Part shown: positions 2,003 to 46,886 of the stretch, piece by piece
Numbering within the stretch: position 1 is the first letter of the stretch
Layout of the letters: each line of letters starts with the position of its first letter
From: Chiloscyllium plagiosum
Taxonomy: Eukaryota
DNA length: 46,886 nucleotides
Direction: 5' to 3'
NCBI RefSeq assembly: GCF_004010195.1
Contig: NW_025214588.1
Location: forward strand, 1-46,886
The notes under the pieces: model-generated
The model's database searches: none
What the model was told of the DNA's origin: nothing
Seen by the model: the letters and a program-made list of their open reading frames with translations, nothing else
Program-made: the position numbers and the translations under genes

Positions 2003-2322
2003 GGGGAGGCAATGGCCTAGTGGTATTATTGCTGGGCTGTTAATCCAGAGATCCCAGGAAATGTCCTGGGGCCCTGGGTTTGAATGCGGCCACGGCAAAT
2101 GGTGGGATTTGCATTCAACAAAAATGTGGAATGAAGAGTCTAATGATGACAATGAATCCATTGTCTGATTGTGGGAAAAACTCATCTGGTTCACTAATGG
2201 CCTTCAGGGAAGGAAACTGCCATCCTTACCTGGTCTGGCCTACATGTGACTCCAGACCCACAGCAATATGGTTGCCCTCTGGGCGATTAGGGATGGACAC
2301 CCTCATCCCGTGAATGAACAAA
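2003..2322 (+). mobile_element. tRNA-derived SINE, second family (not HE1)
   Basis: A-box-like tggcctagtgg, B-box-like gggtttgaatgc, central ctggttcactaatg...gggaaggaaa...cctggtctggcctacatgtgactcc and tail attagggatgg...catcccgtgaatgaa; related copies at 4800-5135 (-) and 20960-21510 (+). Confidence 0.75.
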
Positions 2323-2729
2323 GTTGTAAGTCCGATGCATGACCCTAATTAACATTAAAGCAGCAAAGCTTGAAAACATCATCAGCTCTGTAGATTGAGT
2401 AATGGTGGAAAGTCTGAACTGCCTGCTGCTCCACAGTATACCTCACGCAAAGGTACTGGCCAGTCATTGTGAGTGCTAAAGATCCTATTGGCTTCATGTG
2501 AGAGGCAGCAGTGCTCCCCCAACGTCTCACAAAAACCATACAGTCTTCCCTTATACCAATGACAACACTATTATCCCATTAATACCCCCAGCCTGCAGCC
2601 CAGATCACAGTTCCATCCACTGACTGCCTCATTGTCCTCTGGCGGCACCATTCCGACTCTCACTTTCACTACTCTCCACAGGCCAAGTGGTCAATTCTCC
2701 AGCTGTAGGGCTCGTGCCTGCACAGTATT

Positions 2730-2940
2730 TGCCATTTCAGGGGATGTGGACATCACTGGCCAGTATTTATTGTCTATCCATGATTTGGGAAGATTGTGAT
2801 TTGTGTCCATTGTAGTCATTGGTGGATAGATAGATTCACAGTGCTGTTCAGAAGGTGGTTCTACACCCAGTGACTGGGAAGGAATAATGATGCAGTTTCA
2901 AGTCAGGATGGTCTGTGGCTTGGAGGGAAACTTGATAACA
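2730..2940 (-). mobile_element. LINE 3'-end fragment (CR1/L2-type family sharing its tail with the second SINE family)
   Basis: Matches 4045-4555 and 34230-34510 (aagtcaggatggt...tggagggaaactt). Confidence 0.55.
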
Positions 2941-2957
2941 TTACCATTTACACTCTT

Positions 2958-3872
2958 AGAGTCGTAGAATAATGCAGCATGGAAACAGGCCCTTCAGCCC
3001 AAACTGGTCCATGCTGACTGTGGTGCCCACTCAGCTAGTTCCAATTGCCCACATTTGGTCCATATTCCTCCATACCCTTCCTATCCATGTATCTATCCAA
3101 ATGTTTTTTAAATGTTACTATTGTCTGCCTCAACCATTTTCTCTGGCAGCCCACTCTCTGCATGAAGAAATTGCCCCTCAGGTCCTTCCTAAATCTTTCC
3201 CCTCTCACCTTAAACCTATGCCCTCTAGTTTTCAATTCCCCATCTCTGGGAAAAAGACTATATGCATTCATCCTATCTATGCCCCCCATGATCTTATACA
3301 CCTCAATAAGGTCACCCCTCATTCTTCTACGTTCCAAGGAATAAAGTCCTATCCTGGTCAACCTCTCCCTATAACTCAGGCCTACTAGACCTGGAAACAT
3401 CCTCGTAAATCTTCTTTACACTCTTTCCAGTTTAACTATGTCTTTCCTATAACAGGGCGACCAAAACTGTACACAATACTCCAAGTGCAGTCTCACCAAT
3501 GACTTAAACAACTAGAACGGAACATCCCAACTCCTATAGTCAATGCCTTGACTAATGAAGGCCAGCATGCTAACTGCTTTCTTCACCACCCTGTCTACCT
3601 GTGACACCACTTTCAACGAACTATGTAGTTTGTACTCCTAGGTCCTTCTGTTCCACAACACTATTCAGGACCTTATCATTTACTTGGTTTGACTTTCCAA
3701 AGTGCAACACCTCATACTTATTTGTATTGAATTGCATTTACCCACCCTCAGCCCACTTCCCCATCTGAACAGGATCCCCCTGTAAGTTTTGATCACCTTC
3801 AGGCTTTCAATGAGACCTCCTGATTTTGTATCATTCACCAACTTACTAATCATACCTTGTACATTCACATCC
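2958..3872 (-). mobile_element. 5'-truncated CR1-type LINE (RT C-terminal part plus 3'UTR)
   Basis: ORFs 3680-3868 (ISKLVNDTK, decayed FADDTK) and 3035-3400 (GLSYRERL...RRMRGDLIEVYKIM...TRGHRFKV). Confidence 0.9.
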
Positions 3873-4044
3873 TGATCTGTAAGTGTTGGATGCCCATGGG
3901 CTTTTAGGTGATAGGGGTCGAGGGGTTGTAAAATGCTGTCATAGAAGCCTCGGTGGGTTGGATATTTAGACAGTACTCAGTGCTACGATGTGTGTTAATG
4001 TGGAGAGAATGAATGTTAAGGTACTGGATGATGTGCCAATTTAG

Positions 4045-4555
4045 TATTTTTATGAATTCACTCAAGAATGTGGTCATCGCTGACAGTGTTCTTAGTTGCC
4101 CTTGAGAAGTTGCCTACTTGAACCACTGCAATCAGTTTAGAAATGGAGGTAGACCCATAATGCCAATAAGAAGGGAATTCCAGGACCATATCCAAGTGAT
4201 AATGAAGGAACGGTGATATGTTTCCACGTCAGGATGGTGAGTGGGTTGGAGGGGAACTTGCAGATGGTGGTGTTCCCATGTATCTGCTGCCCTTGGCTTT
4301 CTTGAGAGATTGTATTGGTGTGGTCTGAGGATCATTAGCAAAGTTATGCAGTTTACCTTGTTGGCATTGAGCGTCGATGGTGGAGGGAGTGGATGCTTGT
4401 GGATGTGGTGCCAATCAAGTGGGCTACTTTGTCCCGGGTGGTATCAAGCTTCTTGAGTGTTGGAGCTGCCCCCATCCAGACGAGTGGGGAGTATTCCGTC
4501 AGGATGACCTGTGCCTTGTAGATGGTGGAGAGGCTTCAGGAGTCAGCAGGTGAGG
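4045..4555 (-). mobile_element. LINE 3' region fragment (CR1/L2-type, second family)
   Basis: Recurrent sequence (TWEHHHLQVP-like frame; gtggttcaag...cttctcaagggcaact) also seen at 22800-23160 (+) and 34230-34510 (-). Confidence 0.65.
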
Positions 4556-4799
4556 AACGACAGATTCAGGGATGGTGATGGTGATGTCTGGGCCATTGCC
4601 ATTTTCACTGAATTGTACCTTATAGATAACATCAGACTGTTTCTTGCCGAGCCTGTGAGACAACTCTCCCTATTTTGGCAATAGCCCCCAGAGGTTAATA
4701 AGGGGGACTTTGCAGGGTCATCAGGGCTGTTTCTGCTGTTGTTTCCAGTGCTTTATTTGATGTCAGTGGTCCATGTGTCTTTATTCCTGTTTGCTTTTC

Positions 4800-5135
4800 A
4801 AACAGTTGATAAAACTGAGTCGCTTGCTCGGTCATTCCAGAGGGCAGTTAAGAGTCAACGACATTGCTATGGATCAGGAATCACATGTGGGCCAGACCAG
4901 GTCACAGGACAGCAGTTTCCTTGCCTGAAGGACTATTAGTGAACCAAATGGGTTTTCCCTGACAATTGACAATGGTTTTGTGATCGTCATTAGTCGTTTA
5001 CCTCCAGAAGTATTTTCATTGAATTCAAATTCCACAATCTGCCACGGCAGGATTTAAATCTAGGTCCACAGAACATTACCTGGGTCTCAGGATTGATAAT
5101 CCAATGACAATAACACTAAGCCATCAACTTCCCAA
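4800..5135 (-). mobile_element. tRNA-derived SINE, second family
   Basis: Reverse complement of the 2003-2322 element (attagtgaacca...; ccagaccagg...; cactaagccatcaacttccc). Confidence 0.75.
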
Positions 5136-5369
5136 GTGGGGACATGTGCCTTGGATTGTGTCAGGATTCCTGAGAGTCTCGGCTGCACTCATCCAGGAAA
5201 GTACAGAGTATTCCATCGTGCTCCTGATTTGTGCTTTGTTGATCGGGAGAGGTTAAGGGGTAGTCAGGAGCTCATTCACCTATTGCAGAATTTTCAGCCT
5301 GAAGCTATAAGCATTAAAAAACATTGGCCTAGTCTAATTCCAGGAGTGTAATAACTCCAGATTATAGAC

Positions 5370-5677
5370 AGCATTGATAATGCTTGAACTAGTGTGATGT
5401 GAATGTTACTTAATACTTAATCATCCAGGTCACAATCCCACCGCTGATCACTATCTCGTAATGGTCATCACTGTGGTGGAATTCAATCCTAGGTCCCCAG
5501 ATCATTTCCTGGGTCCTTTGATTAGCATTGATAATGCTTGAACTAGTGTGATGTGAATGTTACTTAACACTAAATCATCCCGGTCACAATCCCACCGCTG
5601 ATCACTATCTCGTAATGGTCATCACTGTGGTGGAATTCAATCCTAGGTCCCCAGATCATTTCCTGGGTCCTTTGATT
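5370..5677. repeat. 154-bp tandem duplication (5370-5523 and 5524-5677)
   Basis: Two adjacent copies starting agcattgataatgcttgaactag and ending cctgggtcctttgatt, about 3 substitutions apart; each ends in a minus-strand SINE 5' fragment. Confidence 0.95.
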
Positions 5678-5681
5678 AACA

Positions 5682-8600
5682 CTCCCGTGTTAATATCACT
5701 CAACTGTCACCTCCTCCCGTGTTAATATCACTCAACTGTCACCTCCTCCCATGTTAATATCACTCAACTGTCACCTCCTCCCATGTTAATATCACTCAGC
5801 CGTCACCTCCTCCCGTGTTAATATCACTCAGCCGTCACCTCCTCCCGTGTTAATATCACTCAGCCGTCACCTCCTCCCGTGTTAATATCACTCAGCCGTC
5901 ACCTCCTCCCGTGTTAATATCACTCAGCCGTCACCTCCTCCCGTGTTAATATCACTCAGCCGTCACCTCCTCCCGTGTTAATATCACTCAGCCGTCACCT
6001 CCTCCCGTGTTAATATCACTCAGCCGTCACCTCCTCCCGTGTTAATATCACTCAGCCGTCACCTCCTCCCGTGTTAATATCACTCAGCCGTCACCTCCTC
6101 CCGTGTTAATATCACTCAGCCGTCACCTCCTCCCGTGTTAATATCACTCAGCCGTCACCTCCTCCCGTGTTAATATCACTCAGCCGTCACCTCCTCCCGT
6201 GTTAATATCACTCAGCCGTCACCTCCTCCCGTGTTAATATCACTCAGCCGTCACCTCCTCCCGTGTTAATATCACTCAGCCGTCACCTCCTCCCGTGTTA
6301 ATATCACTCAGCCGTCACCTCCTCCCGTGTTAATATCACTCAGCCGTCACCTCCTCCCGTGTTAATATCACTCAGCCGTCACCTCCTCCCGTGTTAATAT
6401 CACTCAGCCGTCACCTCCTCCCGTGTTAATATCACTCAGCCGTCACCTCCTCCCGTGTTAATATCACTCAGCCGTCACCTCCTCCCGTGTTAATATCACT
6501 CAGCCGTCACCTCCTCCCGTGTTAATATCACTCAGCCGTCACCTCCTCCCGTGTTAATATCACTCAGCCGTCACCTCCTCCCGTGTTAATATCACTCAGC
6601 CGTCACCTCCTCCCGTGTTAATATCACTCAGCCGTCACCTCCTCCCGTGTTAATATCACTCAGCCGTCACCTCCTCCCGTGTTAATATCACTCAGCCGTC
6701 ACCTCCTCCCGTGTTAATATCACTCAGCCGTCACCTCCTCCCGTGTTAATATCACTCAGCCGTCACCTCCTCCCGTGTTAATATCACTCAGCCGTCACCT
6801 CCTCCCGTGTTAATATCACTCAGCCGTCACCTCCTCCCGTGTTAATATCACTCAGCCGTCACCTCCTCCCGTGTTAATATCACTCAGCCGTCACCTCCTC
6901 CCGTGTTAATATCACTCAGCCGTCACCTCCTCCCGTGTTAATATCACTCAGCCGTCACCTCCTCCCGTGTTAATATCACTCAGCCGTCACCTCCTCCCGT
7001 GTTAATATCACTCAGCCGTCACCTCCTCCCGTGTTAATATCACTCAGCCGTCACCTCCTCCCGTGTTAATATCACTCAGCCGTCACCTCCTCCCGTGTTA
7101 ATATCACTCAGCCGTCACCTCCTCCCGTGTTAATATCACTCAGCCGTCACCTCCTCCCGTGTTAATATCACTCAGCCGTCACCTCCTCCCGTGTTAATAT
7201 CACTCAGCCGTCACCTCCTCCCGTGTTAATATCACTCAGCCGTCACCTCCTCCCGTGTTAATATCACTCAGCCGTCACCTCCTCCCGTGTTAATATCACT
7301 CAGCCGTCACCTCCTCCCGTGTTAATATCACTCAGCCGTCACCTCCTCCCGTGTTAATATCACTCAGCCGTCACCTCCTCCCGTGTTAATATCACTCAGC
7401 CGTCACCTCCTCCCGTGTTAATATCACTCAGCCGTCACCTCCTCCCGTGTTAATATCACTCAGCCGTCACCTCCTCCCGTGTTAATATCACTCAGCCGTC
7501 ACCTCCTCCCGTGTTAATATCACTCAGCCGTCACCTCCTCCCGTGTTAATATCACTCAGCCGTCACCTCCTCCCGTGTTAATATCACTCAGCCGTCACCT
7601 CCTCCCGTGTTAATATCACTCAGCCGTCACCTCCTCCCGTGTTAATATCACTCAGCCGTCACCTCCTCCCGTGTTAATATCACTCAGCCGTCACCTCCTC
7701 CCGTGTTAATATCACTCAGCCGTCACCTCCTCCCGTGTTAATATCACTCAGCCGTCACCTCCTCCCGTGTTAATATCACTCAGCCGTCACCTCCTCCCGT
7801 GTTAATATCACTCAGCCGTCACCTCCTCCCGTGTTAATATCACTCAGCCGTCACCTCCTCCCGTGTTAATATCACTCAGCCGTCACCTCCTCCCGTGTTA
7901 ATATCACTCAGCCGTCACCTCCTCCCGTGTTAATATCACTCAGCCGTCACCTCCTCCCGTGTTAATATCACTCAGCCGTCACCTCCTCCCGTGTTAATAT
8001 CACTCAGCCGTCACCTCCTCCCGTGTTAATATCACTCAGCCGTCACCTCCTCCCGTGTTAATATCACTCAGCCGTCACCTCCTCCCGTGTTAATATCACT
8101 CAGCCGTCACCTCCTCCCGTGTTAATATCACTCAGCCGTCACCTCCTCCCGTGTTAATATCACTCAGCCGTCACCTCCTCCCGTGTTAATATCACTCAGC
8201 CGTCACCTCCTCCCGTGTTAATATCACTCAGCCGTCACCTCCTCCCGTGTTAATATCACTCAGCCGTCACCTCCTCCCGTGTTAATATCACTCAGCCGTC
8301 ACCTCCTCCCGTGTTAATATCACTCAGCCGTCACCTCCTCCCGTGTTAATATCACTCAGCCGTCACCTCCTCCCGTGTTAATATCACTCAGCCGTCACCT
8401 CCTCCCGTGTTAATATCACTCAGCCGTCACCTCCTCCCGTGTTAATATCACTCAGCCGTCACCTCCTCCCGTGTTAATATCACTCAGCCGTCACCTCCTC
8501 CCGTGTTAATATCACTCAGCCGTCACCTCCTCCCGTGTTAATATCACTCAGCCGTCACCTCCTCCCGTGTTAATATCACTCAGCCGTCACCTCCTCCCGT

Positions 8601-11600
8601 GTTAATATCACTCAGCCGTCACCTCCTCCCGTGTTAATATCACTCAGCCGTCACCTCCTCCCGTGTTAATATCACTCAGCCGTCACCTCCTCCCGTGTTA
8701 ATATCACTCAGCCGTCACCTCCTCCCGTGTTAATATCACTCAGCCGTCACCTCCTCCCGTGTTAATATCACTCAGCCGTCACCTCCTCCCGTGTTAATAT
8801 CACTCAGCCGTCACCTCCTCCCGTGTTAATATCACTCAGCCGTCACCTCCTCCCGTGTTAATATCACTCAGCCGTCACCTCCTCCCGTGTTAATATCACT
8901 CAGCCGTCACCTCCTCCCGTGTTAATATCACTCAGCCGTCACCTCCTCCCGTGTTAATATCACTCAGCCGTCACCTCCTCCCGTGTTAATATCACTCAGC
9001 CGTCACCTCCTCCCGTGTTAATATCACTCAGCCGTCACCTCCTCCCGTGTTAATATCACTCAGCCGTCACCTCCTCCCGTGTTAATATCACTCAGCCGTC
9101 ACCTCCTCCCGTGTTAATATCACTCAGCCGTCACCTCCTCCCGTGTTAATATCACTCAGCCGTCACCTCCTCCCGTGTTAATATCACTCAGCCGTCACCT
9201 CCTCCCGTGTTAATATCACTCAGCCGTCACCTCCTCCCGTGTTAATATCACTCAGCCGTCACCTCCTCCCGTGTTAATATCACTCAGCCGTCACCTCCTC
9301 CCGTGTTAATATCACTCAGCCGTCACCTCCTCCCGTGTTAATATCACTCAGCCGTCACCTCCTCCCGTGTTAATATCACTCAGCCGTCACCTCCTCCCGT
9401 GTTAATATCACTCAGCCGTCACCTCCTCCCGTGTTAATATCACTCAGCCGTCACCTCCTCCCGTGTTAATATCACTCAGCCGTCACCTCCTCCCGTGTTA
9501 ATATCACTCAGCCGTCACCTCCTCCCGTGTTAATATCACTCAGCCGTCACCTCCTCCCGTGTTAATATCACTCAGCCGTCACCTCCTCCCGTGTTAATAT
9601 CACTCAGCCGTCACCTCCTCCCGTGTTAATATCACTCAGCCGTCACCTCCTCCCGTGTTAATATCACTCAGCCGTCACCTCCTCCCGTGTTAATATCACT
9701 CAGCCGTCACCTCCTCCCGTGTTAATATCACTCAGCCGTCACCTCCTCCCGTGTTAATATCACTCAGCCGTCACCTCCTCCCGTGTTAATATCACTCAGC
9801 CGTCACCTCCTCCCGTGTTAATATCACTCAGCCGTCACCTCCTCCCGTGTTAATATCACTCAGCCGTCACCTCCTCCCGTGTTAATATCACTCAGCCGTC
9901 ACCTCCTCCCGTGTTAATATCACTCAGCCGTCACCTCCTCCCGTGTTAATATCACTCAGCCGTCACCTCCTCCCGTGTTAATATCACTCAGCCGTCACCT
10001 CCTCCCGTGTTAATATCACTCAGCCGTCACCTCCTCCCGTGTTAATATCACTCAGCCGTCACCTCCTCCCGTGTTAATATCACTCAGCCGTCACCTCCTC
10101 CCGTGTTAATATCACTCAGCCGTCACCTCCTCCCGTGTTAATATCACTCAGCCGTCACCTCCTCCCGTGTTAATATCACTCAGCCGTCACCTCCTCCCGT
10201 GTTAATATCACTCAGCCGTCACCTCCTCCCGTGTTAATATCACTCAGCCGTCACCTCCTCCCGTGTTAATATCACTCAGCCGTCACCTCCTCCCGTGTTA
10301 ATATCACTCAGCCGTCACCTCCTCCCGTGTTAATATCACTCAGCCGTCACCTCCTCCCGTGTTAATATCACTCAGCCGTCACCTCCTCCCGTGTTAATAT
10401 CACTCAGCCGTCACCTCCTCCCGTGTTAATATCACTCAGCCGTCACCTCCTCCCGTGTTAATATCACTCAGCCGTCACCTCCTCCCGTGTTAATATCACT
10501 CAGCCGTCACCTCCTCCCGTGTTAATATCACTCAGCCGTCACCTCCTCCCGTGTTAATATCACTCAGCCGTCACCTCCTCCCGTGTTAATATCACTCAGC
10601 CGTCACCTCCTCCCGTGTTAATATCACTCAGCCGTCACCTCCTCCCGTGTTAATATCACTCAGCCGTCACCTCCTCCCGTGTTAATATCACTCAGCCGTC
10701 ACCTCCTCCCGTGTTAATATCACTCAGCCGTCACCTCCTCCCGTGTTAATATCACTCAGCCGTCACCTCCTCCCGTGTTAATATCACTCAGCCGTCACCT
10801 CCTCCCGTGTTAATATCACTCAGCCGTCACCTCCTCCCGTGTTAATATCACTCAGCCGTCACCTCCTCCCGTGTTAATATCACTCAGCCGTCACCTCCTC
10901 CCGTGTTAATATCACTCAGCCGTCACCTCCTCCCGTGTTAATATCACTCAGCCGTCACCTCCTCCCGTGTTAATATCACTCAGCCGTCACCTCCTCCCGT
11001 GTTAATATCACTCAGCCGTCACCTCCTCCCGTGTTAATATCACTCAGCCGTCACCTCCTCCCGTGTTAATATCACTCAGCCGTCACCTCCTCCCGTGTTA
11101 ATATCACTCAGCCGTCACCTCCTCCCGTGTTAATATCACTCAGCCGTCACCTCCTCCCGTGTTAATATCACTCAGCCGTCACCTCCTCCCGTGTTAATAT
11201 CACTCAGCCGTCACCTCCTCCCGTGTTAATATCACTCAGCCGTCACCTCCTCCCGTGTTAATATCACTCAGCCGTCACCTCCTCCCGTGTTAATATCACT
11301 CAGCCGTCACCTCCTCCCGTGTTAATATCACTCAGCCGTCACCTCCTCCCGTGTTAATATCACTCAGCCGTCACCTCCTCCCGTGTTAATATCACTCAGC
11401 CGTCACCTCCTCCCGTGTTAATATCACTCAGCCGTCACCTCCTCCCGTGTTAATATCACTCAGCCGTCACCTCCTCCCGTGTTAATATCACTCAGCCGTC
11501 ACCTCCTCCCGTGTTAATATCACTCAGCCGTCACCTCCTCCCGTGTTAATATCACTCAGCCGTCACCTCCTCCCGTGTTAATATCACTCAGCCGTCACCT

Positions 11601-14154
11601 CCTCCCGTGTTAATATCACTCAGCCGTCACCTCCTCCCGTGTTAATATCACTCAGCCGTCACCTCCTCCCGTGTTAATATCACTCAGCCGTCACCTCCTC
11701 CCGTGTTAATATCACTCAGCCGTCACCTCCTCCCGTGTTAATATCACTCAGCCGTCACCTCCTCCCGTGTTAATATCACTCAGCCGTCACCTCCTCCCGT
11801 GTTAATATCACTCAGCCGTCACCTCCTCCCGTGTTAATATCACTCAGCCGTCACCTCCTCCCGTGTTAATATCACTCAGCCGTCACCTCCTCCCGTGTTA
11901 ATATCACTCAGCCGTCACCTCCTCCCGTGTTAATATCACTCAGCCGTCACCTCCTCCCGTGTTAATATCACTCAGCCGTCACCTCCTCCCGTGTTAATAT
12001 CACTCAGCCGTCACCTCCTCCCGTGTTAATATCACTCAGCCGTCACCTCCTCCCGTGTTAATATCACTCAGCCGTCACCTCCTCCCGTGTTAATATCACT
12101 CAGCCGTCACCTCCTCCCGTGTTAATATCACTCAGCCGTCACCTCCTCCCGTGTTAATATCACTCAGCCGTCACCTCCTCCCGTGTTAATATCACTCAGC
12201 CGTCACCTCCTCCCGTGTTAATATCACTCAGCCGTCACCTCCTCCCGTGTTAATATCACTCAGCCGTCACCTCCTCCCGTGTTAATATCACTCAGCCGTC
12301 ACCTCCTCCCGTGTTAATATCACTCAGCCGTCACCTCCTCCCGTGTTAATATCACTCAGCCGTCACCTCCTCCCGTGTTAATATCACTCAGCCGTCACCT
12401 CCTCCCGTGTTAATATCACTCAGCCGTCACCTCCTCCCGTGTTAATATCACTCAGCCGTCACCTCCTCCCGTGTTAATATCACTCAGCCGTCACCTCCTC
12501 CCGTGTTAATATCACTCAGCCGTCACCTCCTCCCGTGTTAATATCACTCAGCCGTCACCTCCTCCCGTGTTAATATCACTCAGCCGTCACCTCCTCCCGT
12601 GTTAATATCACTCAGCCGTCACCTCCTCCCGTGTTAATATCACTCAGCCGTCACCTCCTCCCGTGTTAATATCACTCAGCCGTCACCTCCTCCCGTGTTA
12701 ATATCACTCAGCCGTCACCTCCTCCCGTGTTAATATCACTCAGCCGTCACCTCCTCCCGTGTTAATATCACTCAGCCGTCACCTCCTCCCGTGTTAATAT
12801 CACTCAGCCGTCACCTCCTCCCGTGTTAATATCACTCAGCCGTCACCTCCTCCCGTGTTAATATCACTCAGCCGTCACCTCCTCCCGTGTTAATATCACT
12901 CAGCCGTCACCTCCTCCCGTGTTAATATCACTCAGCCGTCACCTCCTCCCGTGTTAATATCACTCAGCCGTCACCTCCTCCCGTGTTAATATCACTCAGC
13001 CGTCACCTCCTCCCGTGTTAATATCACTCAGCCGTCACCTCCTCCCGTGTTAATATCACTCAGCCGTCACCTCCTCCCGTGTTAATATCACTCAGCCGTC
13101 ACCTCCTCCCGTGTTAATATCACTCAGCCGTCACCTCCTCCCGTGTTAATATCACTCAGCCGTCACCTCCTCCCGTGTTAATATCACTCAGCCGTCACCT
13201 CCTCCCGTGTTAATATCACTCAGCCGTCACCTCCTCCCGTGTTAATATCACTCAGCCGTCACCTCCTCCCGTGTTAATATCACTCAGCCGTCACCTCCTC
13301 CCGTGTTAATATCACTCAGCCGTCACCTCCTCCCGTTAATGTCACTCAGCCGTCACCTCCTCCCGTGTTAATATCACTTGGCCGTCACCTCCTCCCGTGT
13401 TAATATCACTCGGCCATCACCTCCTCCCGTGTTAATATCACTCGGCCATCACCTCCTCCCGTGTTAATCTCACTCAGCCGTCACCTCCTCCCATGTTAAT
13501 ATCACTCAGCTGTCACCTCCTCCCGTGTTAATGTCACTCAGCTGTCACCTCCTCCCGTGTTAATATCACTCAACTGTCACCTCCTCCCGTGTTATTATCA
13601 CTTGGCCGTCACCTCCTTCCCTGTTAATATCACTCAGCTGTCACCTCCTCCCGTGTTAATATCACTCAGCCGTCACCTCCTCCCGTGTTAATTTCACTCA
13701 TGCGTCACCTCCTCCCGTGTTAATATCACTCAGCTGTCACCTCCTCCCGTGTTAATATCACTCAGCTGTCACCTCCTCCCGTGTTAATATCACTCAGCCG
13801 ACACCTCCTCCCGTGTTAATATCACTCAGCCGTCACCTCCTCCCGTGTGAATATCACTCGGCCGTCACCTCCTCCCGTGTGAATATCACTCGGCCGTCAC
13901 CTCCTCCCGTGTTAATGTCACTCAACTGTCACCTCCTCCCGTGTTAATGTCACTCAACTGTCAACTCCTCCCACGTTAATATCACTCAGCCGTCACCTCC
14001 TCCCGTGTTAATATCACTCAACTGTCACCTCCTCCCGTGTTAATATCACTCAGCCGACACCTCCTCCCGTGTTAATATCACTCAGCCGTCACCTCCTCCC
14101 GTGTTAATATCACTGAGCCGACACCTCCTCCCGTGTTAATATCACTCAGCCATC
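5682..14154. repeat. 32-bp tandem repeat array (GTGTTAATATCACTCAGCCGTCACCTCCTCCC), about 265 units
   Basis: Directly visible; apparently invariant core from ~5784 to ~13334, with variant units at both edges. Confidence 0.99.
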
Positions 14155-15018
14155 TGACCCCACTGGCATCTTGAGGTAGACTCCTTCAAGCCTCAATGAA
14201 GGCTACACGACATTTTCAGATCGCATGAAGCTTAATTTGGTCTCCAATATTAATACTTTCTGAACTGTTTTAATCCCAACTGATTTTACTCCTGACAATT
14301 TGGCATCAGACTTCATCGTTTTGTTTAAACATAGCACCTGTTACCCCTGTCTTTCACTGAAACATAAGCAGGCTTTGACTTTTATGTTCATTGTATGAGT
14401 GTACCCAAGCCTCTCTATTAATTAATCTTAACAAGTTTCACGCATTTTAGATAAATATATTCTGCTTTACAGTTACTGTGGGAGGAATGGGAGTGTTGAG
14501 AAACTGCAGAGGGAGCAGGAGGGACAATTTGCTGTCTATTTGGGACTGCTACAGCCCAAAAAGTCTACAGCAATAATTTGCCAGCAGAGAAAATTTAGTA
14601 TTGTTTAAACCAGGGAGGAGCATTTGTCCTTATATCCCATAGATTGTTTGCTTAGTGCTGTTGGGACCCTTTCTGAATGAACCATTGCTCTGTGCCAACC
14701 AATTTGTTCACTCTGTGATTACTGGGAAGTAACCAACAATTACAGGCAGTTGTCAGGGACACTGCTGGACAGGTGCAGATGAATGGCTCTGAATTCAATA
14801 AATATTAGCACATTCTGCAGGAACAACCTACAAGCAGCTGATCAATGCTTCTGGCATCATCTGACTGCCATTCATATTCCCTTCACTTAAACAAGATCAG
14901 CAGACAACCCTCGGCAAGTACTGGGAAGCATGCGAAGAATCATCTTTCGAATATTTACTCAAAGATTCTAAGCATCTTTGCAAGGCCCTGTGTTTACTGT
15001 CCACCTCAAATTACTCTT

Positions 15019-15802
15019 TGTTTTCTTTCAGGAGGTCTGACCCTCCATTCTTCTTTCTTTTTTTGTTTTTTCTTTCTTTCTCTTTTTTTTTAAACCCCCA
15101 CACTACCGCCTAACTGCGGTATTGCTTATTTTTTCCCCAGCACCCATGTTGTGTGTGTGCAGGTGTGAGACACAGTGAAAGACACAAAGTGCAAAAATCT
15201 TTATTCAAATTCCACCACCAGGAAGATAGGAAAACACCCGGGTGGCCAGTGACAAACACTGCCCTTCTCATCAAAGGGCAGTGCTGTGTGATCAAAACAG
15301 AGAAGGGGAGGGCAGGGACTAAATCAAAATAGAGTTGAGGGAGAAATGATGCACTCCACTCCCTGCGGCGCCCACCTCTCCCTGAACAACTCCAGGGTGT
15401 TGGTGGACACCGCGTGCTCCTTCTCCAAGGACACCCGGGCTCTAACGTAACCGCGGAAGAGGGGCAGGCAGCCGGCCCTAACGACCCCCTCCACGCCCCG
15501 CTGCCTGGATCTGTTGATGGCCAGTTTGGCCAGGCCCAGGAGCAGAACCACGAGGAGATCTTCAGACCTGCCAAAAGCAGAGGAGGAGGTTTTTAAGAAA
15601 ATCAAAAAGGGAGTGCAAACTCCCACACCCAATATACAGGTGGTCCACAGACTCTACAGCAACACAGAACAAGCAGTTGGGCTGGGAGTCCGTGAACCAT
15701 TGCAATCTGCAGTTGGAGGGGACTGCTGCGTGCAGCATCCTCCACCCCAGATCCCCGAGAGAAAGGGGGAGGACTCCCACGTAGAGAGCCCTTCACTGGG
15801 GA
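15019..15802 (-). mobile_element. 5'-truncated Tx1/L1-type LINE (C-terminal CCHC zinc-knuckle region and 3'UTR) with 14-bp TSD
   Basis: ORF 15562-15780 (LGWRMLH...CLFC...ESVDHLYIGC) and ORF 15324-15632 (LLLGLAKLAINRSR...FRERW); A-rich tail on the minus strand; direct repeat ctcaaattactctt at 15005-15018 and 15803-15816. Confidence 0.85.
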
Positions 15803-16542: not shown

Positions 16543-16598
16543 NNNNNNNNNNNNNNNNNNNNNNNNNNNNNNNNNNNNNNNNNNNNNNNNNNNNNNNN
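16543..16598. other. Assembly gap (N run)
   Basis: Run of N. Confidence 0.99.
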
Positions 16599-17175
16599 GG
16601 ACATTGGTTAGGCCACTGTTGGAATATTGCGTGCAATTCTGGTCTACTTCCTATCGGAAAGATGTTGTGAAACTTGAAAGGGTTCAGAAAAGATTTACAA
16701 GGATGTTGCCACGGTTGGAGGATCTGAGCTACAGGGAGAGGCTGAACATGCTGGGGCTGTTTTCCCTGGAGCGTTGGATGCTAAGGTTTACAAAATTATA
16801 GAGGTTTACAAAATTATGAGGGGCATAGATAGGATAAATAGACAAAGTCTTTTCCCTGTGATCGGGGAGTTCAGAACTAGAGGGCATAGGTTTAGGGTGA
16901 GAGGGAAAGATATAAAAGAGACCTAGGGGGCAACGTTTTCACGCAGAGGCTGGTACGTGTATGGAATGAGCTGCCAGAGGAAGTGGTGGATGCTGGTACA
17001 ATTGCAACATTTAAGAGGCATTTGGATGGGTATATGAATAGGAAGGGTTTGGATGGATCTGGGCCAGGTGCTGGCAGGTGGGACTAGATTGGGTTGGGAT
17101 ATCTGGTTGGCATGGATGGGTTGGACCGAAGGGTCTGTTTCCATGCTGTACATCTCTATGACTCTATGACTCTAA
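16599..17175 (+). mobile_element. Young CR1-type LINE 3' end (HER1-like)
   Basis: [15 protein letters not shown]...KLERVQKRFTRMLP...SYRERL; 3' tail ctctatgactctatgactcta. Confidence 0.92.
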
Positions 17176-28787: not shown

Positions 28788-29635
28788 CTAGAGTCATAGA
28801 GTCATAGAGATGTACAGCATGGAAACAGACCCTTCGGTCCAACCCACCCATGCCGACCAAATATCCCCAACCCAATCTAGTCCCATCTGCCAGCACCCAG
28901 CCCATAATCCCTCCAAACCCTTCCTATTCATTTACCCATCCAAATGCCTCTTAAATGTTGCAATTGTACCAGCCTCNNNNNNNNNNNNNNNNNNNNNNNN
29001 NNNNNNNNNNNNNNNNNNNNNNNNNNNNNNNNNNNNNNNNNNNNNNNNNNNNNNNNNNNNNNNNNNNNNNNNNNNNNNNNNNNNNNNNNNNNNNNNNNNN
29101 NNNNNNNNNNNNNNNNNNNNNNNNNNNNNNNNNNNNNNNNNNNNNNNNNNNNNNNNNNNNNNNNNNNNNNNNNNNNNNNNNNNNNNNNNNNNNNNNNNNN
29201 NNNNNNNNNNNNNNNNNNNNNNNNNNNNNNNNNNNNNNNNNNNNNNNNNNNNNNNNNNNNNNNNNNNNNNNNNNNNNNNNNNNNNNNNNNNNNNNNNNNN
29301 NNNNNNNNNNNNNNNNNNNNNNNNNNNNNNNNNNNNNNNNNNNNNNNNNNNNNNNNNNNNNATTAAACTCCATCTGCCACTTCTAAGCCCATTGGGCCAT
29401 CTGGTCCAGATCCTGTTGTAATCTGAGGTAATCCTCTTCGCTGTCCACTACACCTCCAATTTTGGTATCATCTGCAAACTTACTAACTGTCCCTCTTATA
29501 CTCGCATCCAAATCATTTATGTAAATGACAAAAAGTAGAGGGCCCAGCACTGATCCTTGTGGCACTCCACTGGTTACAGGCCTCCAGTCTGAAAAACAGC
29601 CCTACACCACTGCCCTCTGTCTTCTACCTTTGAGC
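28788..29635 (-). mobile_element. Young CR1-type LINE spanning the second assembly gap
   Basis: [19 protein letters not shown]...[11 protein letters not shown] right of the gap; 3'UTR and (ctctatga) tail left of the gap. Confidence 0.88.
28977..29361. other. Assembly gap (N run)
   Basis: Run of N. Confidence 0.99.
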
Positions 29636-31163: not shown

Positions 31164-31517
<354 letters not shown>

Positions 31518-44039: not shown

Positions 44040-46886
44040 CTCTCCTCTACCTGCACAAGAACACCTCACCTCTACCTGCACAAGAAGACCTCACCTCTAC
44101 CAACACAAGGACACCTCACCTCTTCCTGCACAAAGATACCTCACCTCTATCTGCAAAAGGACACTTCACCTCTTCCTGCTCAAGTACACCTCACCTCTCC
44201 GTGCACAAGTACACCTCACCTCTTCCAGAACAAGAACACCTCACCTCTACCTGCTCAAGGACACCTCACCTCTACCGGCACAAGGACACAGCACATCTTC
44301 CTGCTCATGGACACCTCACCCCTTCTTGCACAAGGATACCTCACCTCTATCTGCAAAAGGGCACCTCACCTCTACCTGCTCAAGGACACTGCACCTCTTC
44401 CTGCACAAGGATACCTCACCACCTCCTGCACAAGGACACCTCACCTCTACCTGCAAAAGTACACCTCACCTCTTCCTGCAGAAGGACACCTCACCTGTAC
44501 CTACACAATGACACCTCATCTCTACCTGCACAAGAACACCTCACATCTTCCAGCAAAAGGACACCTCACCTCTTCCTGCTCAAGTATACCTCACCTCTAC
44601 CTGCGCAAGTACACCTCACCTCCACTTGCAATAGTACACCTCACCTCCACCTGCTGAAGGACACTGCACCTCTACCTGCACAAGGACACCTCAGATCTAC
44701 TGCTCAAGTACACCTCAATTCAAACTGCACATGTACATCTCACCTCCACCTGCTCAAGGACACCTCACCTCTTCCTGTACAAGGACACCTCACCTCTTCC
44801 TGCTCATGGGCACCTCACCTCTACCTGCTCAAGTACACTGCACGTCTACTGCTCAAGTACACCTCACCTCACCTCTTCCTGCACAAGAACACCTCACTTC
44901 TACCAGCTCAAGGGAAGCTCACTTCTTCTTGCACAAGGACACCTCACCTCCACTTGCAAAAGGACACCTCATCTCTTCCTGCACAAGTACACCTCAATTC
45001 TTCCTGCTCAAAGATACCTCACCTCTTCCTGCTCAAAGACACCTCACCTCCACCTGCACAAGAACACCACATCTCTACCCGCATAAGGGCACCTCACCTC
45101 TACCTGCTCAAAGACTCCTCACCTCTTCCTGCACAAGGACGTCTCACCTCTACCTGCTCAAGTACACCTCACCTCCACCAGCACCCTCACCTCCAACTGC
45201 TCAAGGACACTGCACCTCTACCTGCACAAGGACACCTCAACCCTACTGCTCAAGGACACCTCACCTCTACCTGCATATGGACACCTCACCTCTACCAGCT
45301 CAAGGGAAGCTCACTTCTTCCTGCACAAGTGCACCTCACCCCTTCCTGCTCAAAGACACCTCACCTCTACCTGCATCAGGGCACCTCACCTCTCCCTGCT
45401 CAAAGACTAATCATCTTTTCCGGCACAAGGATACCTCACCTCTACCTGCTCAAGTACACTCACCTCCACCTGCGCATGGACTCCTCACCTCTACCAGCTG
45501 AAGGGAAGCTCACTTCTCCCTGCACAAGGACACCTCATCTATACCTGCACAAAGACACCTCACTTCCACCTGCACAAGGACACCGCACCTCCAGGTGCAC
45601 AATGACACCTCACCTCTAGCTGCTCAAGTAGACCTCACCTCTTCCTGCACAAGGACACCTTACCTCTACCAGCTCAAGGGAAGCTCACTTCTTCCTGCAC
45701 AAGGACACCTCACCTCTACCTGCACAAGGACACATCACCTCTACCTGCTCAAGTACACCTCACCTCTTCCTGCTCAAAGACACCTCTCCTCTACCAGCTC
45801 AAGGGAAGCTCATTTCTTCCTGCACAAGGACACCTCACCTCTACCTGCACAACGACACCTCACTTCCACCTGCACAAGGACATCTCATCTCTTCCTGCAC
45901 AAGTACACCTCACCCCTTCCTGCTCAAAGACACCTCACCTCTACCTGCACAAGGACACCTCACCTCTTCCTGCTCAAGGACACCTCACCCCTTCGTGCAC
46001 AAGTACACCTCACCTCTACCTGCACATGGACACCTCACCTCTACCTGCACAAGGACACCTCACCTCTTCCTGCTCAAAGACACCTCACCTCCACTTGCAC
46101 ATGGACACCTCACCTCGACCAGCTCAAGGGAAGCTCACTTCTTCCTGCACAAGGGCATCTCACCTCCACGTGCACAATGACACCTCACCTCTACCTTCAC
46201 AAGAACACCTCATCTCTACCTGCATAAGGGCACCTTACCTCTACCTGCTCAAAGACTCCTCACCTCATCCTGCACAAGGACACCTCATCTCTACCTGCTC
46301 AAGTACACCTCACCTCCACGTGCACAATGTCACCTCATCTCTTCCTGCACAAGGACACCTTACATCTTCCTGCACAAGGACATCTCACCTCTACCTGCAC
46401 AAGTACACCTCACCCATTCCTGCACAAAGACAACTCACCTCCACCTGCACAAGGACACCTCACCTCCTCCTGCACAAGGACACCTCACATCTTCCTGCAC
46501 AATGACACCTCATCACTACCTGCACAAGAACACATCACTTCTTCCTACTCAAGTATACCTCACCTCTTCCTGCACGAGTACACCTCATCTCTCCCTGCAC
46601 AAGAACACCTCACCTCTCCCAGCTCAGGACACCTCACCTCTACCTGTACAAGGACACCTCACTTCTATTGCTCAAGTACACCTCACCTCTACCTGCACAA
46701 GGAAACCTCACTTCTTCCTGCACAAAGACACCTCACCTCTACCTGCTCACTTCTTCCGGCACAAGGACACCTCACCCCTACCTGCTCAAGGACACCTCAT
46801 CTCTTCCTGCACAAGTACACCACACCCCTTCCTGCTCAAAGACCTGCACAAGTACACCACACCCCTTCCTGCTCAAAGACACCTCA
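44040..46886. repeat. 25-bp minisatellite (consensus about ACACCTCACCTCTWCCTGCWCAAGG), more than 110 units, running off the window end
   Basis: Units start at 44061, 44086, 44111 and onward; diverged units with recurrent variants. Confidence 0.97.

What the first reader, a model, noticed from the sequence alone, without database searches (positions are those of the whole stretch)
5640..14154. 8.5-kb satellite apparently born in situ from the tRNA-like (A-box) 5' end of a SINE
Seen: the array starts exactly where a minus-strand SINE fragment (ccagatcatttcctgggtcctttgattaacac) should continue into its 5' terminus. That terminus, read from the copy at 2003-2060 as reverse complement, is gcaataataccactaggccattgcctccc, which aligns with the unit gtgttaatatcactcagccgtcacctcctccc; the copy at ~5105-5133 (acaataacactaagccatcaacttccc) aligns too. 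Edge variants (cactcggccatcacc, cacttggccgtc at ~13375-13455) are closer to the SINE than the core unit is. On the minus strand each unit carries cggctgagtga, a degenerate form of the SINE A box tggcctagtgg. Inference: the SINE head was tandemly amplified about 265 times inside a probable GSG1L intron, giving a CpG-containing array of A-box-like motifs upstream of a B-box-like remnant (minus strand ggattgaattcc, ~5632-5643).
Basis: partly seen in the sequence, partly recalled or inferred. Interest (0 to 1): 0.7.

Follow-up and report, generated by a model that had tools for sequence, protein, structure and literature searches.

The report
Shark minisatellite grown from SINE head
In a shark genome, the first 32 bases of an old, broken jumping-gene copy (a SINE) were copied head-to-tail a few hundred times where they lay, most likely inside an intron of GSG1L; this is a clean new example of a kind of repeat already described in reptiles and mammals, with no sign of function.

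Summary
The array is real: 32 bp x 264.8 at 5682-14151. It continues a minus-strand SINE remnant without a gap. The unit matches two other SINE heads in the window at 21/32 and 23/32, and 0 of 20,000 shuffles reach that. Public contigs confirm the right junction in this species and show the same junction with multi-copy units in a relative about 5% diverged. A third species keeps only 32 nt of array, joined to sequence 11.3 kb upstream: most likely a deletion. So the array predates all three, and no plain-SINE ancestral state was seen. Not supported: the edge-variant argument (2 of 25 variants closer to the SINE, 20 farther) and a working Pol III promoter (B box has lost its invariant C). The 235 identical central units are probably smoother than real alleles. 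New detail: a perfect 8-bp hairpin sits at the birth junction. This is a SINE-derived satellite of the kind described in squamates (PMC10702118). The scan noted the same kind before on other DNA (e1-7814136). New member of a known kind; interest 0.25.

The parts
5682..14151 (.). 32-bp tandem array, 264.8 copies; the unit equals SINE positions about 4-35 read on the minus strand; 2 CpG per core unit (CpG observed/expected 1.20 against 0.26-0.27 in the flanks); stops in all six frames within 96 nt
5815..13334 (.). 235 identical central units; probably more uniform in this assembly than in real alleles
   Evidence: (variant contigs at 35x and 27x flank depth in run X1) against (no non-core 31-mer above 6 copies in the assembly)
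5585..5716 (-). SINE remnant: head and first ~110 nt of a tRNA-headed SINE with a 23-nt insertion; the 3' two-thirds of the element are missing; its first ~35 nt are unit 1 of the array
5632..5643 (-). decayed B box (the C of the invariant TC and the last C of GWTCRAnnC are both T)
   Evidence: read against the consensus in PMC4333407
5696..5706 (-). A-box position of unit 1 (degenerate); repeated in every unit, where the core form misses the first T and last G of TRGYnnAnnnG
5675..5694 (.). perfect inverted repeat (8-bp arms, 4-nt loop) across the SINE-body/unit-1 junction; absent from the two other heads and from unit-unit junctions; candidate trigger of the first duplication
   Evidence: 1 of 5 such hairpins in 35,149 non-array bases; -5.5 against -1.7 and -2.6 kcal/mol
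14133..14162 (-). terminal partial unit and right junction; keeps the SINE-like base at unit position 20; junction present in organisms A, B and C
5370..5678 (.). 154-bp tandem duplication (3 differences) that copies the SINE-body part of the remnant; real or assembly artefact not tested
2003..2325 (+). near-complete copy of the same SINE family with an intact A box, used as reference
4853..5133 (-). second copy of the same SINE family (75% identical to the first), used as reference
2794..2823 (+). sequence to which the array remnant is directly joined in a contig of organism C: left breakpoint of an apparent 11.3-kb deletion
31221..31517 (+). last coding exon of GSG1L; the only exon of the gene found in the window

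Best explanation
A single-locus, SINE-derived minisatellite that most likely does nothing. (1) An old tRNA-headed SINE copy lies antisense, probably in the last intron of GSG1L, and has lost its 3' two-thirds [remnant shown; intron position inferred]. (2) Substitutions in this copy made a perfect 8-bp hairpin at SINE positions about 23-42, and made positions 31-35 read GGGAG, like the family's own 5' end [both features shown; that they came before the duplication is inferred]. (3) Replication slippage or unequal exchange at these short homologies duplicated the head. A 29-bp step plus a 3-bp GAG slip, or one direct 32-bp step, gives the unit [inferred; no 29-bp unit survives]. (4) Unequal crossing-over and gene conversion expanded and homogenised the array, leaving ragged ends with CpG-type changes [pattern shown; process from established satellite models]. 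(5) This began before three shark species about 5% apart split: long in A, present and probably shorter in B, removed down to 32 nt in C by a deletion with short homology at the breakpoints [junctions shown in one run each; direction inferred]. It is not a Pol III transcription unit because the only B box is broken.
For: Register and shuffle controls. A SINE head from another locus of organism C matches the unit at 30 of 34 bases with SINE body adjoining in the same register (record 17). Right junction seen in X1 (organism A; 986-nt contig, 6 differences) and X11 (organism B; 805-nt contig, 42 differences), with unit contigs at depth 66-137 against 7.5 for the flank in X11. X20 (organism C): only 3 records laid with about 94% of the run read, none a multi-copy unit contig; its orthologous contig runs from 14122 into sequence matching window 2794-2823 at 27/30, the only match in the window, 0.00 expected by chance. 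In X1, 5 of 71 laid records fit only partly, and the loose ends listed for X1 all lie outside the array. Rough depth arithmetic gives 3-16 kb of unit sequence in X1, which brackets 8.5 kb. 3 of 4 possible CpG transitions occur among the variants against 16 of the other 92 changes (p 0.02; among transitions only 3 of 4 against 6 of 28, p 0.06). Same anatomy as squamate sSats (PMC10702118); short flanking direct repeats are the standard origin model (PMC6947457); array centres homogenise better than ends (PMC5615363).
Against: No genome was available to count loci. The read test for other loci is weak: junction contigs overlapping the unit by only 30 bases seem not to be laid, the locus's own left junction did not appear, and 2 loose ends and 73 pieces were not shown. 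The left junction was not checked in reads. No species with a plain SINE head at the locus was found, so the pre-amplification state was not seen. The SINE 5' terminus is not intact at the far end and no target-site duplication can be identified. The deletion in C rests on 30 displayed letters of one contig. The tool warns that summed depth is no copy number. The hairpin was noticed after the fact, and hairpin and direct repeat could have arisen after the duplication.
Confidence: 0.85

Rival explanations
1. The unit is SINE-derived but was born at another locus, or belongs to a small dispersed family, and reached this SINE copy by gene conversion or recombination.
For: The SINE family is old and abundant in sharks if it is SacSINE1-like (PMC5499810); squamate sSats are often multi-locus families; the read test for foreign flanks has low sensitivity; X1 holds abundant variant units that the assembled array lacks, which could come from a second array.
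Against: Unit and body join in exact register and share a copy-specific hairpin; organism C shows no multi-copy unit contig in about 94% of its run; rough total in X1 of 3-16 kb leaves no room for many long arrays; no look-alike stretch in the scan's index (148 windows of this genome noted, so a weak check).
Confidence: 0.08
2. The junctions are real but the length and the perfect 7.5-kb core are partly made by the assembly (gap filling or consensus smoothing). This can hold together with the best explanation.
For: 235 consecutive identical units; variants confined to about 130 bp on the left and 830 bp on the right; the window has N gaps and a 154-bp near-identical duplication next to the array; in X1, 57 of 71 laid records are under 99% alike and two variant contigs stand at 35x and 27x flank depth, whereas no non-core 31-mer exceeds 6 copies in the assembly.
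Against: Depth in X1 fits several kb of unit sequence, so a long array exists; X1 differs from the assembly in the flank (6 differences and a 12-nt indel in 812 nt), so it is probably another individual with other alleles; uniform centres with ragged ends are expected in real arrays (PMC5615363) and sSats reach 100% identity in some loci.
Confidence: 0.4
3. The array has a function: a battery of A-box-like motifs or a CpG-rich block that drives antisense Pol III transcription or affects GSG1L expression or splicing.
For: CpG observed/expected 1.20 against 0.26-0.27 in the flanks; the array is kept in two species about 5% apart with a near-identical unit; no run of four T on the minus strand of the array.
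Against: The B box lacks the C of the essential TC pair (PMC4333407); core A boxes miss 2 defined positions, a level reached at 0.6% of ordinary positions; the B box lies about 65 nt from the nearest A box, which is the most degenerate one; organism C appears to have lost the array; CpG-type variants suggest methylation; unit RNA folds no better than shuffles (z -0.23); unit identity between A and B is within chance for 5% divergence.
Confidence: 0.04
4. The likeness of the unit to the SINE head is chance.
For: Identity to single copies is only 66-72%; a few unrelated 32-mers in the window reach 21/32 when any phase is allowed.
Against: 0 of 20,000 shuffles reach the summed score under either model; the register is fixed independently by the adjoining SINE body; a paralogous head matches 30/34.
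Confidence: 0.01

Closest known systems
SINE-derived satellites (sSat1-3) of squamate reptiles; Vassetzky, Kosushkin and Ryskov 2023, PMC10702118 (parts 1-4 of 5 of the text read)
   Same: Tandem units cut from part of a tRNA-derived SINE; a longer terminal unit on one side that continues into the SINE; hundreds of copies; high uniformity in long arrays; copy number differing between related species; single long loci known (over 1200 units in Sceloporus occidentalis); some variants cover the tRNA head (sSat3Gja2, sSat3Ppi2).
   Different: Unit is 32 nt against about 67-290 nt; it holds only the A-box part of the head; host is a shark; appears to be one locus, probably intronic, not a multi-locus subtelomeric family (chromosomal position not testable here).
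TE-derived minisatellites of mammals: Ahmed and Liang 2012, PMC3389668 (abstract and section 3.4 read); Alu- and B1-derived minisatellites and the Haber-Louis model as cited in PMC6947457 (passages; the original papers not seen)
   Same: Short units born inside a SINE copy and expanded locally; short flanking direct repeats as the starting point; at least 23% of human minisatellites and satellites are TE-derived, so the event class is common.
   Different: Most human cases have few units; this one has about 265 in the assembly and can be followed over three species.
SacSINE1 / Deu-domain SINEs of sharks; PMC5499810 (passages; supplement not available)
   Same: tRNA-related head with A and B boxes, old dispersed copies about 75% alike, size range that fits the 320-nt copy in the window.
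   Different: The remnant itself has lost the region where a Deu domain and tail would lie.
Pol III-transcribed tandem families of amphibians (OAX, PolIII/TAN, Rana/polIII), as described in PMC10702118 and PMC12054243 (passages)
   Same: Tandem arrays with tRNA-related sequence.
   Different: Their units are 200-360 nt or longer, and PolIII/TAN is transcribed in vitro; here each unit has a damaged A box and no B box.

Membership tests
SINE-derived satellite (sSat, PMC10702118) | [quoted passage not shown] | tested here: met
   264.8 copies; multi-copy unit contigs in two species
SINE-derived satellite (sSat, PMC10702118) | Unit is homologous to part of a SINE and shorter than it | tested here: met
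   21/32 and 23/32 to two heads, 0 of 20,000 shuffles; 30/34 to a paralogous head
SINE-derived satellite (sSat, PMC10702118) | A terminal unit extends into the SINE in register | tested here: met
   Left end continues into SINE positions 36 to about 110; it does not reach the SINE 3' end, which is missing
SINE-derived satellite (sSat, PMC10702118) | Parent is a dispersed SINE family with a Pol III-type head | tested here: met
   Two near-complete copies and one weak copy in the window; intact A box in the copy at 2003; a further copy at another locus of organism C. ARAGORN and Rfam found nothing in the window, so the tRNA of origin is not identified
SINE-derived satellite (sSat, PMC10702118) | Subtelomeric preference and spread to many loci (typical, not required) | not testable with these tools
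   No genome held; read depth points to one or very few loci
SacSINE1 / Deu-SINE (parent element) | Deu conserved domain and L2-derived tail, by alignment to the consensus | not tested
   No consensus available from the tools (a sequence term found no paper); assignment is recall plus PMC5499810
Type 2 Pol III transcription unit | B box GWTCRAnnC with invariant TC | tested here: not met
   5632-5643 has T at both C positions (one search read)
Type 2 Pol III transcription unit | A box TRGYnnAnnnG | tested here: not met
   Core unit misses the first T and last G; unit 1 is worse
Type 2 Pol III transcription unit | A discrete transcript or Pol III/TFIIIC occupancy | not testable with these tools
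   No suitable RNA or ChIP data could be laid
Haber-Louis type minisatellite origin | 5-10 bp direct repeats flanking the unit at unit spacing | tested here: inconclusive
   GGGAG at SINE positions 31-35 of this copy equals positions 2-6 of the copy at 2003, 29 bp apart; the unit is 32 bp, so an extra 3-bp slip is needed and no 29-bp unit survives

The most novel reading that the evidence does not exclude
Shark genomes routinely turn pieces of their old tRNA-headed SINEs into multi-kilobase single-locus arrays, and the trigger is sequence-specific: a stem-loop relic of the tRNA head, made into a perfect hairpin in one copy, stalls or slips replication and starts the duplication. This locus would then be a datable natural experiment in satellite birth, growth and death (long in species A, shorter in B, deleted in C), extending SINE-derived satellites from reptiles to cartilaginous fishes and supplying a starting mechanism for cases that current models leave unexplained.
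Probability: 0.2. Interest if true: 0.5.

Novelty: new member of a known kind. Interest (0 to 1): 0.25.

Why it matters
How satellites start is still poorly documented: the squamate study left open whether SINE-derived satellites occur outside scaled reptiles, and known mechanisms explain only 6% of human TE-derived tandem repeats. This locus adds a shark case with a very short, head-only unit, an exact junction, a candidate hairpin trigger and three different states in related species. Four paper searches (listings only, open-licence library) showed no paper on SINE-derived satellites in sharks. It changes no principle: the event class is known, this scan has noted a similar array in another genome, and in-situ minisatellites of other origin elsewhere in this genome. 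There is no evidence of function.

Tried and rejected
Whole-genome count of the unit: no genome held. Rfam (0 matches) and ARAGORN (0 genes) on the window did not identify the parent tRNA. Pfam found nothing for the exon product; the gene name comes from the homolog search. Six-frame motif scan and tblastn with 4 GSG1L proteins found no upstream exon in the window. Edge variants as relics of the ancestral SINE: rejected (2 closer, 20 farther, 3 equal of 25); the one clearly SINE-ward change, at unit position 20, is also a CpG transition. Coding role: rejected, stops in all six frames within three units. RNA structure: unit trimer z -0.23, junction z -1.44. Expression: no RNA holder listed; single-cell poly(A) run X21 laid 0 reads with about 2% of the run read, which is no test. 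Only 4 of the 24 listed runs were laid, and only on the right junction (14037-14936). A 36-nt piece of an X11 contig matching 14151-14186 at 31/36 is near chance and was not used. Searches of earlier findings by sequence or place found no look-alike. A sequence term from the SINE body found no paper; the supplement of PMC5499810, which may hold the SacSINE1 consensus, could not be read. No parent was found in the window for the second satellite at 44040-46886.
Full report
The array. Tandem Repeats Finder gives 5682-14151, period 32, 264.8 copies, 99% matches. Of 265 units 238 are identical. Units 5-239 (5815-13334) are all identical; variants occur in 4 of 4 left-edge and 23 of 26 right-edge units. 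CpG observed/expected is 1.20 in the array and 0.26-0.27 in the flanks, and all six frames hit a stop within three units. The host is a shark: the exon at 31221-31514 is the last coding exon of GSG1L, 99% and 98% identical to carpet-shark proteins so named. No other GSG1L exon lies in the window, so 'inside the last intron' is likely but inferred.

The unit is a SINE head. The window holds two near-complete copies of one SINE family (2003-2325 plus, 4853-5132 minus, 75% alike) and one weak copy. nhmmer aligns SINE positions 3-94 to 5714-5624 on the minus strand (E 6.6e-7), running from SINE body straight into unit 1; the remnant can be followed to about position 110 across a 23-nt insertion. 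In that register the core unit matches the two heads at 21/32 and 23/32, as well as they match each other (21/32). None of 20,000 mononucleotide or 20,000 dinucleotide shuffles reached the summed score of 44, even with any phase and strand allowed (maxima 39 and 40). A SINE head from another locus in organism C matches the unit at 30 of 34 bases, with SINE body adjoining in the same register (record 17).

What did not hold. The edge variants are not closer to the SINE: of 25 variant 32-bp units, 2 are closer, 20 farther and 3 equal (the 30-bp unit and the terminal partial unit were left out). The commonest change, in 12 units, is a CpG transition. Three of 4 possible CpG transitions occur, against 16 of 92 other changes (p 0.02; p 0.06 among transitions only), which hints at methylation. 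The far end does not show an intact SINE 5' terminus: the last partial unit stops near SINE position 9. The promoter reading also fails. Against the consensus boxes in PMC4333407 (passages read), the core A box misses its first T and last G, and the single B box at 5632-5643 has T at both C positions, including the C of the TC pair whose mutation sharply reduced Alu transcription in that paper. With a similar consensus from recall, 0.6% of ordinary positions fit the A box as well as the core does.

Independent sequence data. No genome is held. Of 24 runs listed, 4 were laid on the right junction, 14037-14936. In X1 (organism A) a 986-nt contig confirms the junction and 71 records were laid, most on the array. 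Five fit only partly, and the loose ends listed for X1 all lie outside the array. This test for other loci is weak: junction contigs overlapping the unit by 30 bases seem not to be laid, and the locus's own left junction did not appear. Rough arithmetic on depth, which the tool warns is no copy number, gives 3-16 kb of unit sequence: one long array, not a large family. X1 has variant contigs at 35x and 27x flank depth, whereas no non-core 31-mer exceeds 6 copies in the assembly, so the perfect 7.5-kb core is either allele-specific or smoothed by the assembly. In X11 (organism B, 42 differences in about 800 nt) the same junction is present with unit contigs at depth 66-137 against 7.5, so B has an array too, probably shorter (very rough range 0.25-1.8 kb). 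In X20 (organism C, 39 differences in about 800 nt; about 94% of the run read) only 3 records were laid and none is a multi-copy unit contig. Its orthologous contig aligns from 14122, that is 32 nt of array including one unit-unit junction, and then continues into sequence matching window 2794-2823 at 27/30, the only match in the window. The simplest reading is an 11.3-kb deletion in C with short homology at the breakpoints, which means at least two units existed in the ancestor of all three. This rests on 30 displayed letters of one contig. No plain SINE head was found at the locus in either relative.

Mechanism. Two features of this copy offer a starting point. A perfect inverted repeat with 8-bp arms and a 4-nt loop spans the body/unit-1 junction at 5675-5694; it is 1 of 5 such hairpins in 35,149 non-array bases, and the other two heads do not form it. 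SINE positions 31-35 read GGGAG here, like positions 2-6 of the copy at 2003, which recalls the short flanking repeats of the Haber-Louis model (as cited in PMC6947457). The spacing is 29 and the unit 32, so an extra 3-bp slip is needed, and no 29-bp unit survives. Both features were noticed after the fact and could postdate the duplication. Expansion by unequal exchange and conversion, with uniform centre and ragged ends, follows standard satellite models (PMC5615363, passage). I put 0.85 on a neutral array born at this locus, 0.08 on import from elsewhere, 0.04 on function; separately, 0.4 that the assembly overstates uniformity or length.

Comparison with what is known. The anatomy is that of the SINE-derived satellites of squamates (PMC10702118, parts 1-4 of 5 read): part of a tRNA-derived SINE in tandem, one end continuing into the SINE, hundreds of uniform units, variation between relatives. 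It differs by a 32-nt A-box-only unit, a shark host and apparently one locus. TE-derived minisatellites are common in humans (PMC3389668, abstract and section 3.4). Shark genomes carry much simple tandem repeat, more on short chromosomes (PMC10620051, passages). Four searches showed no paper on SINE-derived satellites in sharks (listings only). Earlier unchecked notes of this scan describe a 33-bp array inside a SINE in another genome (e1-7814136) and two minisatellites grown in place at exon-intron junctions of this genome; a second, older satellite lies at 44040-46886 of this window. Local tandem amplification of whatever sequence is at hand therefore seems routine in this genome.

Verdict. 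Observation partly confirmed; interpretation partly supported. A real SINE-head-derived minisatellite, older than the split of three related sharks, with no evidence of function. New member of a known kind; interest 0.25.

Noticed in passing
window 44040-46886: Second, older satellite: 25-bp unit, at least 108 copies, 77% matches, running off the window end about 12.5 kb downstream of the GSG1L stop codon; no parent sequence found in the window.
   Followed up: partly
window 5370-5678: 154-bp tandem duplication with 3 differences directly left of the array, copying the SINE-body remnant; about one read length, so it may be an assembly artefact or a second local slippage event.
   Followed up: partly
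window 2823 to 14122: A contig of organism C joins these two places directly: apparent 11.3-kb deletion removing several old repeats, the SINE body and nearly all of the array.
   Followed up: partly
window 14809: Runs of all three organisms have 12 extra bases here, so the assembly carries a 12-bp deletion (allele or error).
   Followed up: no
window 14216-14260: A short stretch of the right flank matches several contigs from other loci in all three organisms: probably a relic of another dispersed repeat.
   Followed up: no
window 15050-15770: GC-richer segment after a T-rich tract that by eye reads like the 3' end of a minus-strand LINE; not analysed.
   Followed up: no
window 16544-16599 and 28978-29362: Two N gaps (441 N in all), one at an (AC)n microsatellite; an assembly that left these open yet holds 7.5 kb of perfect repeat deserves caution.
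   Followed up: partly
window 1-31220: No GSG1L exon other than the last lies in the window, so the last intron is probably longer than 31 kb.
   Followed up: partly
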